From the human T2T-CHM13v2.0 reference genome, Homo sapiens, in the NCBI RefSeq assembly GCF_009914755.1, contig NC_060925.1: DNA of 64,000 nucleotides, one strand, 5' to 3'. A model generated the notes under the pieces. That model did not search any database and was not told where the DNA came from. It saw only the letters and a list, made by a program, of their open reading frames with translations. Shown here in pieces: positions 7,296-48,178 of this stretch. The position numbers and the translations under genes are program-made. The stretch's first letter is position 1. The number at the start of each line of letters is the position of its first letter.

Positions 7296-7910
<615 letters not shown>

Positions 7911-10899: not shown

Positions 10900-11242
10900 G
10901 GAAGTATACTGTTTACTCTTTATTACCTTGAAACAATAGGGTATTCACTTTTTCTTCCCCGTAACTCAGTTTAACAGTCTTCATTTGAAAGAAACAAGGC
11001 AGAATACATTACTAGTCCTTCTTAATGCTTTCTTACTCAATTTGTTTATAGACTATTAGGTCCCAATCATCTTCCTTTTAAATATTTTTTGCTATTAATG
11101 GCACTGATTACAGAGGAATCACACATTACTTCAAGTGAATTTCCATTCTGAGTTGCAGAACTTCTATGTTTTTGACTGGTGAGAAACGAAGTACACCCTC
11201 AAGAAAAATAAGTCATAAGAAAAACCACTGTATTAGGGCTAC
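10900..11242 (-). other. Candidate spliced alternative terminal exon downstream of the distal poly(A) site
   Basis: Acceptor tttcctcttctcttgcag|G (AG 11244-11243). AATAAA at 10924-10919 followed by a U/GU-rich downstream element. Confidence 0.55.
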
Positions 11243-11774
11243 CTGCAAGAGAAGAGGAAATCTTATAAAATTAAGACACAAAGAGAGAACTCTTTATACA
11301 GTACTTCCTGTAAATTGGCAGTATCTCCCGATGATGCATCCAAACTGTCCAACAAAGCTTTCCTCAAATAATCCCCTCACCACTTCTCCTTCACTTGTGG
11401 CATGTCACATCGAGGGCACAAGGGCACTGGGGCAATAAAAAGCCTACTGAAAGCACTGTACAAGTGTTTACGTTTGCCCACCTCTGTAGATTCTCTAGGA
11501 TCATTTCCAAAATGCCACAATTTCCTCACAAAAACGCTATTGGCAGCCTGTTATGCCACAGCCAATATTCCTATCTGCCACCTGTAGATCTAGTTCTAAC
11601 CTCAGTCAAGCTTCCTGGCAATTTAATAAATCTCTGGGGAGTTCAGCCTTTTCATTTTTACTATCCTACTCCTTCACTACCTTCCTTAGAACAGGTACAG
11701 TATCTAGTACTAAATTTGAAGACAGAAACTCCATTTAACTACAAAAGCCTAAATCACATAACTACTAAATCTGT

Positions 11775-11923
11775 TTTGCACAATCAAACCCATCACACCC
11801 CACCCAAAATCACCAACACAACATTTTGAACATGTTAAATTTTATTAAAAATATTTAACATCGTACAAATATTCCAATACAGTTATGGTACATGAACACT
11901 GTACCAAAAGCATGATTTTTATT
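11775..11923 (-). terminator. Distal poly(A) site: AATAAA 11846-11841 (second copy 11923-11918), upstream UGUA x3, GU-rich downstream element
   Basis: TGTA at ~11864, 11878 and 11889. Downstream tgtgttggtgattttgggtggggtgtg on the minus strand. Confidence 0.8.
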
Positions 11924-13547
11924 AAACTGATGATTAAATGGAAAAGGTCTTGCAAATGTCCCTATTTTGGTATTTCTTATGTTACTATATCCATATCAGC
12001 AATTTATGTTTGCAGGAGCCTTCAGTCCAATTATAGAAATAGTCTTAGAACATAGTACCTAACATTATAATGGGATTCACTAAGTACAAGTCTACCTACA
12101 TTATCGAAGAGGCTAGAGAAGTCCCTTTTGCCCAACCCTCATATGTGAGAAATCAAGAAAAGCAATGTTCATGGGATCCTGACAAATCTACTATATAAAG
12201 TGAGAGCCCTTATTTAAATTTGAGCAATTTAAGTTTTTCCCCAGAATGTCTCCTTTGTTGGTTCCACAAAATGTATTTTGTTTTTAGTGTTTAAAGTCAA
12301 CAAACTGGCATTGCATTTTCCTTAACTTACATAAACTCATCAGAATTACATGAATATTCCTACTGCTTACCTTAAAACTTCCTAAGGAGCATGCTATTTA
12401 GTGCTAAGTTTTATACCCTGATCCTTTCTGTCACTGACACATGCATAAAATGTTACCTTAACACAACCCTGCAATCACTACAATTCTTAAAAGTATTACA
12501 TAATTTCATTCTAGTGTTGTACAACTAGTCTATAGCAAACTTACAAGTAAGGGTTTATATTCATGACACTGACTAGCACATTTAACATCTAGGAAAGTCT
12601 TTCTAGACTGATATTCTCAACCAATAAAGAAGATACAGTGCTGTAAGAATACTGAGAAGGTTCTTCAGGCATGAAAATCCATAATTACTTTTAATCAGTG
12701 TTTATACCATATTACAATTATTTTTTATATGGTATGGTCAGAAATGCCTAGTTACTAAATTTAATTTCAATCTATACCTTACCATCATGGAATCCCCTAC
12801 AAACTATAAGATGAGGGATTTTAATCTTTAGCAATAATTTAAATATTGACTCTTAATTCTACCAATATCTGCTAATCCTATCAGCTACCCTAGCTTTCAC
12901 ACAAAACACAAGTTGTTCATAGGTTTATGTTTCTGCTATGTTCAAGGTCTTAATATTTCAGCTATGTAATTTCCTCTTGACCCAAAGTCATTGTCTCAAC
13001 ATATCTCTAAATTGAGGCCATTATTGTCAAACTGCTAAAACTTTTTAAAGTTTCATTTTACAGTGTTAAGATTACTTTGGAAGATTTTTAAAAATAGTAT
13101 CTTTGGTGTTTAAGCCCTCCATTCTATCAATGTCTTCTTGTTTTCACTAAAATTAGTGTGCAATAAATATCTCTTTAAGATGCATTATATGTTAATCTAT
13201 CCAACAAAATATAGAAAATATAATACTAGACTGAAATGACAGTTAAAGCAAATTTATTGTCTCTCCAACAGACTTTTTAAGATTATAAGGTGTCTATTTT
13301 GCTCACTTAAAATATACCCTGAGTATTTCATTACTTCATACTTGCAGGCCTTTCCTGCTGATCTGCTACCAATTTAAAAGTAAGTGAAGTGTTATTATAT
13401 GTTCCTATTAAGAACAAAATAATTTAATATTAAAGTCCTATTTTTCTACAAGGCTGACATAATTGCCCACTTATAGGATATGGGCATTCTCCCACACTTA
13501 ATGCCCCACTACTGATAAAAAAAAAAATAGGAAAAAAAAGTTCTTAC

Positions 13548-13708
13548 CAACAATTCCACTGGTTATCGTCCCCAGCGAACCCCACCTAGCAAGTCGACAT
13601 CATGACATGTCAGGTCAGGGCAGCCTCAACCTCGCTTCCCTGATAGTCAGGTGATAAAAGGAAGGAGTTAAAACAGGAAAAGTACACTTGCAGATTTCTG
13701 GATAACAT
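13548..13708 (-). other. Candidate 3'UTR cassette exon (acceptors at 13708 and 13639; donor TTG|GTAAGA)
   Basis: Two pyrimidine-rich acceptors (ttttttaatcattttcag|ATG; ccttttatcacctgactatcag|GGA), a consensus donor, and local CpG retention in an AT-rich UTR. Confidence 0.6.
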
Positions 13709-13721
13709 CTGAAAATGATTA

Positions 13722-13756
13722 AAAAAACAAAAAAACAAAACAAAACAAAACAAAAC
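13722..13756 (-). repeat. (TTTTG)n / U-rich tract upstream of the 3'UTR cassette acceptor
   Basis: aaaaaaacaaaaaaacaaaacaaaacaaaacaaaac on +. Confidence 0.8.
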
Positions 13757-16700
13757 CAGAGCTTCTGGTAACCTCTAAATAAAAAAGTATATATATGTAC
13801 TTTTATTTAAAGAAAAAAAACTTTTCTAGAAGGATTAACAATAATTAACTTCAAATTAAATATTATTAAATTGCTGACCAATACATTGTATATGCAATAT
13901 TTTTAAAGCTTGGTGTTTGCATTTGAAAATTAAGACCTAATCAACAAACTTCTAATATAAAAGTAAACATGTCTGGCTAATGGATTTGTTATTCTGGATT
14001 CTCCAGTCAGTCATCCAATCTACTGGTTTCCTCAGAACAACTCCACCCCTAAGTTAACAGAAGCTCCCATTCTTAGAGAAACATAAACACACTTATAAAT
14101 CCAGTGTAGTCTTTCTATAAGGCTTTTTCTTAGTTGCTCACTTAAGAGATTCCACATAATAATTGTCCACATAATAATGGACTACACTAATATTAACTTT
14201 GGTTAGTTTTCTTTAAGAATATTGGTAGCTCAGTATAATAAAATTATCTTTGAAAAATCAAAATGACAAGTTTTAACATATTTAGAAGCCTTGATAATTG
14301 ACAAGCAATAGCCTTATAGCAAGTATTTACTGGAAGGGTTTGGTTTTACAAATGCACAATTAATAAAACGTAGGTATGATTATATTCAAATGGGCAGGAG
14401 GCAAATGATGTAATGAGTTTCAAGAATAATATTATATGGCTTTATGCTAGGAGTGAAATTTTATGTCCCTTCTCTTTTAGAATTTAAAATATATAATTTA
14501 TTTTTTTGCATGCTGACCTTTTTAAAAAGAATTCATCTCCTAAGTCAGATTTCAAAGTCAAAAGAGAGAAAAATTATCTCCTACTATCAGAAAGCATTGG
14601 GCTTTCTTATGCAGAATAACCCCAGTAACTAAAAAAACCTGAAAAACAATTATGCTGAACTCATTTTAAAAAAACTACAGAATCATAACTCATTTTCCTT
14701 ATCTTTTCACCAAATAAACCTGCATTTATTAGAAATCTGGCAACTTATTAGAACTTTTTTGCTCTTAAAAATTAAAATACCTTCATATAAATACATACAT
14801 TTAAGCAACTGCTATAAATGAGTGATCAAATAAAAATTAGTATTCCATTATGGGGAGGGGCATATTTGTATCGGTCTCACCAGGGTACCTACAAAGAATA
14901 GCTCTATACCTCAATATATTTCCCAACACACACTTTACTGTAACAGGCTCATAAATAAAGCCAAATCAATTAGCTTGGGGAACAAAAAAGATGGAAAGAC
15001 AGGAGAGCAGGAAACCAAATTCCTTACACTCATAATTTGTACCTAATTTAAAAAAAAAAAATGCCAATCTAGAATAAAGACCTCCCTCAACTGACATTTT
15101 TCAGGTTTATATATTACACTGTTAGATTTATTTATGTGAAAAGTTGAGCTCTGAATCTATTTTCTCTGAATGCTGCTACAGTGTTAATTTACAAGACATG
15201 AAAGAAGAAAAGCTCTTGAGTTTTAATGTTTATAGGATTATGCTTTACAATTTAAAATAGCCACAAAACCTATAAACCAAATATTAGAGGGTACCTCTGC
15301 AAATATATTTTTAATTAGTGAAAAGGACAGAGGAGGAGGTGGCCACTTTAAAATTCAAAATATAATTTGCAATTAAAGGAAAGGATTTTGACATGGAACC
15401 CAAGTTTTAATCTTATGTTTTTGCGAGGGTTTGTTTTCTCAGAATCATTTCTATCCCCATTCTTAGCATTCTTTATGACAACTTTGTAGCTTGTAACACC
15501 TAATTAAGAAATACAAACAACTCAAATTTTATTTGTAGATTTTGTTCTTTCCAGGAAAAAAATCAGGGTTTTACTTAAGTCTAATTAGATGTATAGTTAC
15601 AACTTCAAATTGTACTTTCAAAGTTTAAAAGCAGCATTTAAAGAATGTTTGGTGTCTTTACTTGCATACATGGGCATAAGAAAAACAACTGGATCTGTCT
15701 TACCAAAGAAATACCCATGTTAACTCAAAACTATCATACAACAGACCATAATTCCTTTATCAGTTTCCAAAAAACTAAAATATCAATAAGGTCTGTTAAA
15801 TGACTATACTGTGTAATGAGTGTACTTTGAAAAAGAAATGAAATATATTGACTTTCATCAGTAAATAGTAATCTTAAATTGAAATGAAAAGAAGCCATGA
15901 AACCCAATATGATCTAGCCAAGATTACACGGAATTAAGTGGCTTATGATTTTGAAATCTAATATTCCTATCACAAAGACACCAAACAGGAACAAAACACA
16001 GAATAATGGTGTATCCATTTTAATTATTCCCCAATGGCTTCTGATATTTTTATCATTATAAAAACATTTGAGAACCACGTAAGAATAAGATGGAGGGGAA
16101 AACTTAATAGTAATTTGAAAGTGATTCACTTTTCTGTACCGTAAAGCTTAGATTCTTTTGTTCCTCTCATTCTCAAGCAAAAAAGTCATTAGAATAAATC
16201 AGAATTTCTAAAGGAAATAGGGAAATAGATGTTATGTCTTGGCCAACAAAAAATTTGGGCATCAGGGATAGCAGATAAATAAAAATAAACGAAGTGTTAA
16301 CAGAAAGTCAAAGGTATTACTACTGGATATTTTTAAGCCTCTCTTACAAGGCATGAATGTTTCTCAAAGCAAATTTACATAGTAATAGGAAATTATATTC
16401 CTAAACCAGTAACTGAAATGGTAGTCACGATCATTTTCACTAAAACTAAAGTCCGCAGTGCAATTGACGCCACAGTACTAACAATTTTCCCTGTATGTAC
16501 ATTCACTTATCCAGCAAATAAGGTCTTCAGTCACAAATTATCCCTTATAAAGAATGTGGGTCAAAATAAATTGCAGTCTGCTTTCCCAGCCACATTTTAT
16601 TTGTTTTAATGCAAATTATCCAATGCCTGCAAGAATGCTCAAAAGTCTATGAACCTGTTTTTTTTTTTTAATAAAAGATAAAATTTCAAAATTAGAAGAG

Positions 16701-16941
16701 ACTATGAGAGAACACCAATCAATGAAAGTGCTAATTGGAATAAATACTTGAATTTAGACTAATCCTCAGTCTAATATCCACAACACATGTTGGAATAAAC
16801 AAGAAATTTTGCATGAATTTGATCACTCACATAGGCAGTTATACTTTGAAAACAATATTCCTTGCAAGGATTACGAATAAAATAATGTTTTAGGACACAA
16901 TTGAATTTGAAATAGGTAATGTTTTGAATAGATTTTTTAGT

Positions 16942-16947
16942 TTTATT
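16942..16947 (-). terminator. Proximal poly(A) signal AATAAA (~650-nt UTR)
   Basis: TTTATT on + strand. Further AATAAA copies at 17203-17208 and 16596-16601. Confidence 0.7.
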
Positions 16948-17587
16948 GAAATCTTACATGAACAAGAAATTGGAAATACAATCACATCAAAGAACAAATT
17001 GTCACGGCTTTTGACGTTTAAGCCAAACAAATTTTGTAGGGCAGATTTCAAAAAGGTGTGAAGTTATAACAATTTAAAAACACAGTTAACCTACTTCTAG
17101 GAATGCAAAACATACAATCATAGGTTATTTTCAATACAAGAAAACTTAAATTTGTTTGCTTTAATTTCTTAAAACTACTAAGACAAAGCACTAGCTTGTA
17201 TTTTTATTTACAGCATACTCCATACTCCTATGTAATCTATCCCAAATCCAAAAAAATGAAACTGTCCAAAACCAAAGGTTCTGCAAAATCATGATTTAAC
17301 AGTGTGCCCAGCTTGTTTTGAAGCTAAAATGAAGCCTGAAACGATAAAAGCATTGTAATCCCCAGAATAAGGGAACTCTGCAAGCCCAATAATGTCCAAG
17401 AGCATTTATGAAAAGAGGAAAAATAAAAAGACTTGAGTATATACACAATAGTGATTTCTTCAGCCCAATACAAATGGCAGCAAAATGCTACTTAAAGATG
17501 AAACAGTTAAGCCAATTTTTTTTTTTGAAGAATGTAGATCTAGAGCCAATCGTATCTTGCCAGTATCATTTTCAAGCCCTTACTTGT

Positions 17588-48178
<30,591 letters not shown>

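What the first reader, a model, noticed from the sequence alone, without database searches (positions are those of the whole stretch)
13548..13690. 3'UTR cassette looks like a frameshifted paralogue of the SYNCRIP hnRNP Q1 last coding exon
Seen (minus strand): a ~47-nt AG-free pyrimidine tract, then tatcag|GGA AGC GAG GTT GAG GCT GCC CTG ACC TGA (GSEVEAALT*). One base away the frame reads CCT GAC CTG (PDL), followed by ...gacttgctaggtgggg...cagtggaattgttg|gtaag. From memory, the SYNCRIP Q1 isoform ends in an alternative exon encoding GKGVEAGPDLLQ (GGAAAAGGGGTCGAGGCCGGTCCTGACCTG), followed by a similar gacttgcta..gtggg and cagtgga...gtaag stretch. In HNRNPR exon 11 the position matching the SYNCRIP internal donor (QQQRGRG|V, GTA) reads RGRG-S (GGT TCC, 17821-17816), so the in-frame donor is gone. 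Inference: the alternative-tail exon predates the HNRNPR/SYNCRIP duplication. HNRNPR then lost its coding use (donor loss plus a 1-nt deletion) but kept the exon as a non-coding regulatory/poison exon.
Basis: partly seen in the sequence, partly recalled or inferred. Interest (0 to 1): 0.85.

Follow-up and report, generated by a model that had tools for sequence, protein, structure and literature searches.

The report
HNRNPR copy of SYNCRIP's Q1 exon
A 92-base stretch inside the long tail of the HNRNPR gene is the ancient sister of the exon that gives its paralogue SYNCRIP a short alternative protein end, and in HNRNPR it seems to be read in a different frame, which cuts the protein short.

Summary
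On the minus strand, window 13639-13548 is a 92-nt unit. A 45-nt AG-free, pyrimidine-rich tract and a CAG acceptor precede it, and GTAAGA follows it. It aligns with the SYNCRIP alternative exon that encodes GKGVEAGPDLLQ* (75% over 97 nt, E 1e-10), colinear with exons 10 and 11. The processed pseudogene SYNCRIPP1 confirms the SYNCRIP Q1 junction. HNRNPR has no in-phase GT at the matching donor position, and a 1-nt indel breaks the Q1 frame.

The exon has not simply lost coding use. Read in the +1 frame it gives (G)KRG-stop. Six HNRNPR-type proteins from public sources (skate, two lizards, mouse lemur) end in GKRG. Splicing human exon 11 at three phase-1 GTs (17917, 17671, 17656) onto the cassette reproduces three of those tails exactly. 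In the same frame SYNCRIP reads (G)KRGRGRS-stop, a tail found in six Q-type proteins. None of 130 R-type proteins has a VEAGPD-like tail.

Best reading: an alternative 3' exon that predates the duplication and is read in two frames. In HNRNPR it produces C-terminally truncated, Q1-like isoforms. Use in human, use of the GTAAGA donor, and any NMD or poison role were not tested here. Human RefSeq does not annotate the exon.

The parts
13640..13684 (-). AG-free, pyrimidine-rich tract (45 nt, 78% Y), with a TTAAC branch-point-like motif and the acceptor AG at 13641-13640
   Evidence: 28 of 40 positions upstream of the acceptor are identical to SYNCRIP.
13548..13639 (-). 92-nt exon unit, paralogous to the 89-nt SYNCRIP Q1 exon (chr6:86829636-86829724 in T2T)
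   Evidence: BLASTN 75% over 97 columns, E 1e-10, colinear with exons 10 and 11. Exon nt 1-30 are 23 of 30 identical; nt 31-92 are 38 of 62 identical.
13626..13639 (-). +1-frame coding part, GG AAG CGA GGT TGA = (G)KRG-stop (stop at 13628-13626). This is the frame used by phase-1 donors.
   Evidence: It matches the GKRG tails of P0026, P0141, P0143, P0146, P0158 and P0159.
13610..13639 (-). Frame-0 reading GSEVEAALT-stop (stop at 13612-13610). This is the broken counterpart of the SYNCRIP GKGVEAGPDLLQ-stop frame.
   Evidence: 0 of 130 R-type proteins carry a VEAGPD-like tail.
13542..13547 (-). GTAAGA 5' splice-site-like hexamer that ends the conserved block (SYNCRIP has GTAAGG). Whether it is used is unknown.
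   Evidence: TTG|GTAAGA matches the consensus at 6 of 9 positions. The SYNCRIPP1 retrocopy reads through the SYNCRIP counterpart.
17650..17658 (-). Phase-1 donor CTG|GTAACT (last exonic base 17656). Spliced to the cassette it gives ...[11 protein letters not shown].
   Evidence: 7 of 9 consensus match. The conceptual tail equals that of skate R isoform P0159 and matches lizards P0141 and P0143 apart from S/A. The same donor is conserved in SYNCRIP and gives the tail of P0067.
17665..17673 (-). Phase-1 GT AAG|GTGGTG (last exonic base 17671). Spliced to the cassette it gives ...QPLQQGKRG*.
   Evidence: The conceptual tail equals that of skate R isoform P0158.
17911..17919 (-). Phase-1 GT GAG|GTAGAG (last exonic base 17917). 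Spliced to the cassette it gives ...PPPRGKRG*, a 528-aa protein lacking the rest of the RGG box, the [16 protein letters not shown] stretch and the QN-rich end.
   Evidence: The conceptual tail equals that of mouse-lemur P0026 (528 aa). The consensus match is weak, 5 of 9.
17816..17821 (-). Position homologous to the SYNCRIP Q1 donor (GGG|GTACGT). HNRNPR reads GGTTCC, with no phase-0 GT.
   Evidence: The shifted GT at 17820 is phase 1 and matches the consensus at 3 of 9 positions.
17578..17586 (-). Donor-like CAA|GTAAGG, 4 nt after the stop codon. It could splice the cassette into the 3'UTR without changing the protein.
   Evidence: 7 of 9 consensus match. No transcript evidence.
13253..13258 (-). 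AATAAA 290 nt past the GTAAGA (there is also an ATTAAA at 13428-13423). These are candidate poly(A) signals if the unit is the start of a terminal exon, as in SYNCRIP.
   Evidence: The SYNCRIP Q1-type retrocopy ends about 20 nt after AATAAA, 258 nt past its GTAAGG.

Best explanation
The segment is HNRNPR's copy of an alternative 3' exon that already existed before HNRNPR and SYNCRIP duplicated at the base of vertebrates. In both genes it lies inside the long 3'UTR of the canonical last exon. It is reached by splicing from internal GT sites in the Gly/Arg-rich coding part of exon 11 to a conserved pyrimidine tract plus CAG acceptor.

The exon is read in two frames. From the phase-0 SYNCRIP donor it gives GKGVEAGPDLLQ-stop (hnRNP Q1). 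From phase-1 donors, which are mostly GGT glycine codons, its first two G's restore the glycine. It then reads KRGRGRS-stop in SYNCRIP and KRG-stop in HNRNPR.

HNRNPR has kept only the second use. The products would be C-terminally truncated hnRNP R isoforms. From donor 17656 the protein would be 615 aa by my arithmetic and would lack the last 21 residues. From donor 17917 it would be 528 aa and would lack most of the RGG box, the C-terminal basic stretch and the QN-rich end. These are architectural analogues of hnRNP Q1.

Shown: the homology, the splice-site anatomy, the frames, and the existence of matching protein models in other vertebrates. Inferred: that the human exon is spliced this way, and what the short isoforms do.
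For: - Significant, colinear similarity to the SYNCRIP exon. Identity peaks over the acceptor region, the first 30 nt and the donor hexamer.
- The SYNCRIPP1 retrocopy joins SYNCRIP exon 11 (last base 7786 of my locus coordinates) to the cassette, which proves the Q1 junction.
- 6 of 130 R-type proteins end in GKRG (skate X2 and X3, Salvator x2, Anolis, Microcebus) and 6 of 88 Q-type proteins end in KR[G/T]RGRS.
- Conceptual human splices from 17917, 17671 and 17656 give ...PPPRGKRG...QPLQQGKRG and ...GGDYSGKRG, identical to P0026, P0158 and P0159.
- Between the paralogues the KRG codons differ only synonymously: AAG/AAA, CGA/AGG, GGT/GGT.
- 22 of 26 GTs in the HNRNPR exon-11 coding sequence are phase 1.
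- Poly(A) signals follow the unit in both genes.
- The duplication is placed at the base of vertebrates in PMC2660306 (passages).
- Q1 lacks the second NLS and the RGG region, and an unassigned ~71 kDa hnRNP R band is reported in PMC6125337 (passages).
Against: - None of the 18 RefSeq HNRNPR transcripts in the window splices the last exon.
- The only HNRNPR retrocopy that covers the 3' end (HNRNPRP1) has an unspliced 3'UTR ending at a proximal poly(A) site.
- No other copy of the cassette exists in the genome.
- The supporting proteins are computational gene models, and their transcript support could not be inspected.
- Donor 17917 is weak (5 of 9 match to consensus) and 17671 looks weak by eye (one search did not score it).
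- A three-residue tail is little to select on.
- The database is clustered at 90% identity and only the best 120 hits of each search were listed, so the counts are samples.
- The papers seen describe only N-terminal or internal hnRNP R isoforms.
Confidence: 0.6

Rival explanations
1. This is the reader's reading: a regulatory, unproductive (poison) cassette. The unit is included as an internal exon, entered from a coding donor or from the CAA|GTAAGG site 4 nt after the stop. It is left through GTAAGA at 13547 to a downstream acceptor. The stop codon then lies more than 50-55 nt upstream of the last exon junction, and the mRNA is degraded by NMD. That would give hnRNP R, or hnRNP Q, a way to hold HNRNPR output down. 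This does not exclude the main explanation, because the KRG-ending transcripts could themselves be the NMD substrates.
For: - The GTAAG hexamer and the non-coding 3' part of the unit (GACTTGCTA.GTGGG and CAGTGGA blocks) are conserved between the paralogues even though they lie after the stop in every frame.
- Geometry: in HNRNPR the stop ends 78 nt (+1 frame) or 62 nt (frame 0) before the GTAAGA. From the canonical stop via 17584 the distance is 96 nt. In SYNCRIP the Q1 stop ends exactly 50 nt before GTAAGG and the +1-frame stop 63 nt before it.
- A 7-of-9 donor sits 4 nt after the HNRNPR stop.
- Mouse Hnrnpr is named among splicing factors with AS-NMD evidence in Upf2-knockout liver (PMC3446288, passages).
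Against: - No transcript, retrocopy or gene model seen here uses the 13547 donor.
- The one SYNCRIP retrocopy reads through the equivalent GTAAGG to a poly(A) site.
- My acceptor scan found no compelling downstream partner: the candidates are 13230, 11926 and an impossible one 36 nt away. The scan does not discriminate, though, because annotated HNRNPR acceptors score 0.45-0.9 on the same measure.
- The event behind the mouse AS-NMD statement is in a closed supplement and may be a different exon.
Confidence: 0.25
2. The exon is a relic in human. It was functional in the vertebrate ancestor and still is in SYNCRIP, but in mammals the HNRNPR copy is no longer spliced. It survives only as a 3'UTR sequence element (for example a protein-binding site) or through slow decay.
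For: Human RefSeq does not annotate it. The Q1 donor and frame are gone. No structured-RNA family matches the 3'UTR, and the local fold is not unusual (z -1.05).
Against: - Identity to SYNCRIP (75%) equals that of coding exon 11 (76%) after a split at the base of vertebrates, while the rest of the 3'UTR shows no detectable similarity. This argues for continued constraint.
- The acceptor tract, the KRG-stop reading and the three donors are all intact in human.
- A primate model (P0026, mouse lemur) uses the exon.
Confidence: 0.1
3. The similarity comes from a recent gene conversion or other sequence exchange between SYNCRIP and HNRNPR, not from ancient shared descent.
For: None specific. Considered because the match is an isolated island in otherwise unalignable 3' regions.
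Against: - The island is no more similar (75%) than the neighbouring coding exons (76% and 86%).
- R-type GKRG and Q-type VEAGPD tails are already distinct in cartilaginous fishes.
- The two copies differ by an indel and by their acceptor type, TATCAG against TAGCAG.
Confidence: 0.03

Closest known systems
SYNCRIP alternative 3' exon that defines hnRNP Q1 (tail GKGVEAGPDLLQ; PMC6125337 prints VKGVEAGPDLLQ)
   Same: - Same position, downstream of exon 11 inside the long 3'UTR, and same orientation.
- Homologous pyrimidine tract and CAG acceptor.
- 75% identical body, the same GTAAG at the end, and poly(A) signals downstream.
- Entered from internal donors of exon 11 and removes the C-terminal domains (paper passages).
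   Different: - HNRNPR has no phase-0 donor at the Q1 position, and a 1-nt indel breaks the VEAGPDL frame.
- The only frame supported by protein models is +1 (KRG-stop).
- The acceptor is single (TATCAG) rather than the TAGCAG tandem that gives SYNCRIP its +/-Q variants.
- Human RefSeq does not annotate it.
Unproductive-splicing (AS-NMD, 'poison') exons of SR and hnRNP genes (described in PMC3446288, passages; further examples recalled)
   Same: A strongly conserved small exon unit in an RNA-binding-protein gene, carrying stops in all three frames. Its stop-to-junction distance would trigger NMD if the downstream donor is used.
   Different: Neither use of the downstream donor nor NMD sensitivity has been shown. 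The unit can equally be the start of a terminal exon, which would not trigger NMD.
Dual-coding alternative exons read in two frames (examples such as CDKN2A and GNAS are recalled, not checked here)
   Same: One stretch of RNA is translated in two frames depending on the upstream splice. Both readings are supported by protein models in SYNCRIP (VEAGPD-like 34 and KRGRGRS 6 of 88 Q-type proteins).
   Different: The overlap is very short (4-13 codons), lies at the extreme C-terminus, and in HNRNPR only one frame appears to be in use.

Membership tests
Paralogue of the SYNCRIP hnRNP Q1 exon | Significant sequence similarity to the SYNCRIP exon | tested here: met
   75.3% over 97 columns, E 1.05e-10 against the 40-kb locus. 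106 of 156 identical, E 3e-14, with a second scoring scheme.
Paralogue of the SYNCRIP hnRNP Q1 exon | Same relative position and orientation in the gene (colinear with exons 10 and 11) | tested here: met
   Three colinear hits in the same order and on the same strand. The acceptor lies 3949 nt after the stop in HNRNPR and 1836 nt after it in SYNCRIP (coordinates).
Paralogue of the SYNCRIP hnRNP Q1 exon | Conserved 3' splice site and exon boundaries | tested here: met
   28 of 40 positions identical upstream of the acceptor, CAG|GGAA in both genes, and GTAAG at the 3' end in both.
hnRNP Q1-type isoform (functional equivalence) | In-phase (phase 0) internal donor after ...QQQRGRG | tested here: not met
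   SYNCRIP has GGG|GTACGT. HNRNPR has GGTTCC at 17821-17816. The nearest GT is phase 1 and matches the consensus at 3 of 9 positions.
hnRNP Q1-type isoform (functional equivalence) | Tail G.GVEAGPDL.. in the translated frame | tested here: not met
   Frame 0 reads GSEVEAALT* because of a 1-nt indel. 0 of 130 R-type proteins have a VEAGPD-like tail, against 34 of 88 Q-type.
Alternative 3' coding exon of HNRNPR (KRG tail) | Protein models whose C-terminus equals exon-11 donor plus cassette | tested here: met
   P0026, P0158 and P0159 are identical to the conceptual human splices. P0141, P0143 and P0146 also end in GKRG. All are from species other than human.
Alternative 3' coding exon of HNRNPR (KRG tail) | Transcript evidence in human | not testable with these tools
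   No read data or GENCODE annotation were at hand. RefSeq has 0 of 18 transcripts with this splice. No retrocopy carries it.
Poison (AS-NMD) cassette exon | Both flanking splice sites used, so that an exon junction lies more than 50-55 nt after the stop | tested here: inconclusive
   The geometry fits (62-96 nt), but use of the 13547 donor and of a downstream acceptor is unsupported. The acceptor scan does not discriminate.
Poison (AS-NMD) cassette exon | Isoform stabilised when NMD is blocked | not testable with these tools
   There is only a literature hint: Hnrnpr is listed among factors with AS-NMD evidence in Upf2-knockout liver, with the event given in a closed supplement (PMC3446288).

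The most novel reading that the evidence does not exclude
The unit is an adaptor exon more than 450 million years old and read in two frames. Its leading GG repairs any GGT glycine codon used as a donor in the RGG region. Its conserved non-coding tail and GTAAG site set the distance from the stop to the next junction. In SYNCRIP Q1 that distance is exactly 50 nt, which would make the mRNA NMD-immune and productive. In HNRNPR it is 62-96 nt, which would make the mRNA NMD-sensitive. After duplication the two paralogues would thus have turned one ancestral exon into opposite outputs: a stable cytoplasmic isoform in SYNCRIP, and a dosage valve in HNRNPR that either paralogue could operate.
Probability: 0.15. 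Interest if true: 0.65.

Novelty: new member of a known kind. Interest (0 to 1): 0.42.

Why it matters
hnRNP R is studied almost entirely through its full-length and N-terminally short forms, often with antibodies against the C-terminus (PMC8643683, passages). Isoforms ending in KRG would lack that epitope. Depending on the donor, they would also lack the QN-rich end, or the RGG box and the C-terminal basic stretch as well. hnRNP Q1 lacks the corresponding regions (PMC6125337).

If the human exon is used, there is an overlooked class of hnRNP R proteins, or an overlooked route to unproductive HNRNPR mRNA. [quoted passage not shown]

It is also a clean example of an alternative exon that survived a vertebrate-base duplication in both copies while the copies settled on different reading frames.

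Tried and rejected
- **Retrocopies as fossil transcripts.** A whole-genome search with the HNRNPR cassette found only itself (1 match). HNRNPRP1 carries an unspliced 3'UTR that ends at a proximal poly(A) site. HNRNPRP2 and HNRNPRP3 cover only 5' exons. For SYNCRIP the same approach worked (2 matches; junction).
- **Long open frames in the pseudogenes as full-length protein queries.** None was long enough. I therefore stepped up from the exon-11 translation to a 324-aa partial protein and then to a 528-aa protein.
- **Structured RNA.** No Rfam family reached its threshold in 11800-18300. Both paralogues fold so that the pyrimidine tract pairs with the purine-rich exon start, but the z-scores are -1.05 and -0.58. 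I make nothing of it.
- **Downstream acceptor prediction.** My pyrimidine-fraction scan is too crude. Annotated HNRNPR acceptors score 0.45-0.9.
- **Transposable-element origin.** Rejected: no masked repeat of 100 nt or more overlaps 11000-20000.
- **Gene conversion.** Rejected (see rivals).
- **Dating the 1-nt indel in other vertebrates.** Not possible.
- **Literature.** Nine searches listed no paper describing an HNRNPR exon homologous to the Q1 exon, a KRG-ended hnRNP R, or spliced HNRNPR 3'UTR isoforms. I saw listings and the passages named in the report, not whole texts. Supplements are closed, and Table S5 of PMC3446288 may name the Hnrnpr NMD event.

Full report
**What is there.** HNRNPR lies on the minus strand, and RefSeq draws its last exon as one block, 11824-18200. 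All 18 RefSeq transcripts in the window share that unspliced block, and no masked repeat of 100 nt or more lies in 11000-20000. Inside the 3'UTR, read on the minus strand, the features are as follows:
- A 45-nt AG-free stretch (78% pyrimidine) ends in tatcAG at 13641-13640.
- A 92-nt unit runs from 13639 to 13548.
- GTAAGA follows at 13547-13542.
- All three frames of the unit stop early: frame 0 reads GSEVEAALT*, offset 1 reads EARLRLP*, and offset 2 reads KRG*.

**Is it related to SYNCRIP?** I fetched the SYNCRIP locus from the same genome and ran BLASTN.
- The 451-nt region around the unit gave one hit that was not low-complexity: 75.3% over 97 columns, E 1.05e-10.
- With window 11000-19000 as query the hits were colinear: exon 11 (76.1% over 645, E 9e-128), exon 10 (85.6% over 104, E 2e-27), then the unit (E 1.9e-9). 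Nothing else in the two 3' regions aligned.
- A second scoring scheme extended the match through the pyrimidine tract (106 of 156 identical, E 3e-14).
- The SYNCRIP counterpart is an 89-nt unit behind a tagCAG acceptor. It encodes GKGVEAGPDLLQ* and ends ...GTAATG|GTAAGG.
- In a global alignment, identity is 28 of 40 just upstream of the acceptor, 23 of 30 in exon nt 1-30, 38 of 62 in the rest of the exon, and 6 of 6 at the GTAAG(A/G) site. The flanks score 46 of 80 and 64 of 114.

The cassette is therefore as similar between the paralogues as coding exon 11 is.

**Is the SYNCRIP unit really the Q1 exon?** The processed pseudogene SYNCRIPP1 on chromosome 20 matches SYNCRIP exons in order. It joins exon 11, ending at my locus coordinate 7786, directly to the unit. 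It then continues past the GTAAGG to coordinate 5379, about 20 nt after two AATAAA signals. This is a fossil of a Q1-type mRNA in which the unit is the start of a terminal exon. Conceptual splicing at 7786 gives ...RGRGGKGVEAGPDLLQ*. Use of the upstream AG of the TAGCAG tandem gives ...RGRGQGKGVEAGPDLLQ*. Both tails occur among the retrieved proteins. A paper gives the Q1-specific end as VKGVEAGPDLLQ and says Q1 lacks the second NLS and the RGG region (PMC6125337, passages).

**The donor and the frame in HNRNPR.** SYNCRIP has CGCGGG|GTACGT. At the aligned position HNRNPR has CGTGGTTCCCGT (17821-17816 = GGTTCC), so there is no phase-0 GT. Relative to SYNCRIP, HNRNPR lacks one base after GAGGC.G., which puts PDL out of frame 0.

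I searched proteins from named public sources in three steps. The searches found 12 hits, then 152 with the best 120 listed, then 484 with the best 120 listed. Together they stored 218 distinct proteins. I classed each protein as R-type or Q-type by which human exon-11 translation its C-terminal 230 residues align to better.

| Tail | R-type (n = 130) | Q-type (n = 88) |
|---|---|---|
| Canonical ...QQWK | 99 | 25 |
| GKRG | 6 | 0 |
| VEAGPD-like | 0 | 34 |
| KR[G/T]RGRS | 0 | 6 |
| Other | 25 | 23 |

- The six GKRG proteins are two isoforms from the skate Rhinoraja, two from the lizard Salvator, one from Anolis, and one from the mouse lemur Microcebus.
- The VEAGPD-like Q-type tails include two isoforms from the shark Heptranchias.
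- In HNRNPR the offset-2 frame of the unit is GG AAG CGA GGT TGA. In SYNCRIP it is GG AAA AGG GGT CGA GGC CGG TCC TGA.
- Conceptual splicing of human exon 11 at the phase-1 GTs 17917, 17671 and 17656 onto 13639 gives ...PPPRGKRG*, ...QPLQQGKRG* and ...[11 protein letters not shown]. These are identical to the ends of the lemur protein and the two skate isoforms.
- The SYNCRIP equivalent of the 17656 donor gives ...GGDHSGKRGRGRS*, identical to a caecilian Q isoform.

The exon is therefore read in two frames. The KRG frame is shared by both paralogues, and in that frame the K, R and G codons differ only synonymously (AAG/AAA, CGA/AGG, GGT/GGT). In frame 0 the V and A codons of VEA also differ only at third positions (GTT/GTC, GCT/GCC). 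This suggests the ancestral exon served both frames.

**Why phase 1?** In the HNRNPR exon-11 coding sequence, 22 of 26 GT dinucleotides are phase 1, mostly within GGT glycine codons. In SYNCRIP the figure is 28 of 36. Cutting a GGT codon after its first G and adding the cassette's GG restores glycine. Any such donor therefore yields ...G-KRG-stop.

By simple match to CAG|GTAAGT, three sites between the start of exon 11 and the cassette reach 7 of 9:
- 17656, CTG|GTAACT, phase 1.
- 17584, CAA|GTAAGG, 4 nt after the stop.
- 16958, CAT|GTAAGA.

Site 17917 scores 5 of 9, and the cassette's own TTG|GTAAGA scores 6 of 9.

**Age.** Skate and chimaera have R-type proteins and a shark has Q-type proteins in the retrieved set. 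A paper places hnrnp-r and hnrnp-q in paralogous chromosome tracts, with single Ciona and amphioxus outgroups, compatible with a duplication at the base of vertebrates (PMC2660306, passages). Since both copies carry the exon, it predates that event. The rest of the two 3'UTRs has diverged beyond recognition, so the exon has been under constraint in both genes.

**Terminal exon or cassette?** This remains open.
- For a terminal exon: the SYNCRIP retrocopy reads through GTAAGG to a poly(A) site. HNRNPR has ATTAAA at 13428 and AATAAA at 13258.
- For a cassette: the GTAAG site and the untranslated 3' part of the unit are conserved. The distances from stop to GTAAG are suggestive. In SYNCRIP they are 50 nt for Q1 and 63 nt for the +1 frame. 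In HNRNPR they are 78 nt for the +1 frame, 62 nt for frame 0, and 96 nt from the canonical stop via 17584.
- My scan for a downstream acceptor is not informative.
- One paper names mouse Hnrnpr among splicing factors with evidence of splicing-coupled NMD, but the event is described only in a supplement I could not open (PMC3446288, passages).

**Evidence against use in human.**
- RefSeq has no such transcript.
- HNRNPRP1 reflects an mRNA with an unspliced 3'UTR that ends at a proximal site after AATAAA at 16947-16942.
- No retrocopy carries the cassette.
- The papers I saw describe only N-terminal or internal hnRNP R isoforms. One notes an unassigned ~71 kDa hnRNP R band, which has other possible explanations.
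- The supporting proteins are automatic gene models from other species, and I could not inspect their transcript support.

**Other checks.** No Rfam family matched. The local folds are not unusual.

**Verdict.** The claim that HNRNPR lost coding use of the exon is not supported. HNRNPR lost the Q1 frame but appears to keep the exon in the +1 frame as a three-residue alternative end, which truncates the protein in a Q1-like manner. A poison-exon role is possible and compatible with this, but it was not tested. I rate this a new member of a known kind, of moderate interest.

Noticed in passing
window 17591-18199 (minus strand); SYNCRIP exon 11 in L001: GT dinucleotides in the exon-11 coding sequence are almost all phase 1: 22 of 26 in HNRNPR and 28 of 36 in SYNCRIP. 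They sit in GGT glycine codons, so the RGG region offers many same-phase cryptic donors.
   Followed up: yes
L001 5725-5730 (SYNCRIP acceptor): The SYNCRIP acceptor is a TAGCAG tandem. This explains the protein tails with and without an extra Q before GKGVEAGPDLLQ. HNRNPR has TATCAG and no tandem.
   Followed up: partly
window 17578-17586 (minus strand): A donor-like CAA|GTAAGG sits 4 nt after the HNRNPR stop codon, with a 7-of-9 consensus match. SYNCRIP has ACA|GTAGGG at the aligned place.
   Followed up: partly
window 16922-16960 (minus strand); L008 2040-2110: The HNRNPRP1 retrocopy ends in poly(A) just after the AATAAA at 16947-16942. This marks a proximal poly(A) site that gives a 3'UTR of about 666 nt. 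A donor-like CAT|GTAAGA lies at 16958, just upstream.
   Followed up: partly
window 13626-13680 (minus strand); L001 5700-5755: In both paralogues the predicted fold pairs the pyrimidine tract with the purine-rich start of the exon and leaves the acceptor AG in the loop. The z-scores are -1.05 and -0.58, not significant.
   Followed up: partly
window 17991-17998 (minus strand): A phase-0 GCA|GTAAGA lies in exon 11 after ...DDGYA. Two sheep gene models (P0004, P0005) leave the HNRNPR sequence exactly there. Spliced to the cassette it would give the frame-0 tail GSEVEAALT*, but no protein with that tail was seen.
   Followed up: no
window 13725-13765 (minus strand): A (GTTTT)n microsatellite followed by a T-run lies about 90-125 nt upstream of the cassette acceptor.
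   Followed up: no
proteins P0165, P0197, P0209, P0212 (teleost R-like): Several teleost R-like models leave exon 11 at or next to the ...G(G/A)DYSG donor but continue into different tails (GEDGG..., (G)GEKNPQW..., (G)SRGAAQS...; P0197 runs ...GADYSEKMD...). The downstream exon may have diverged in teleosts.
   Followed up: no
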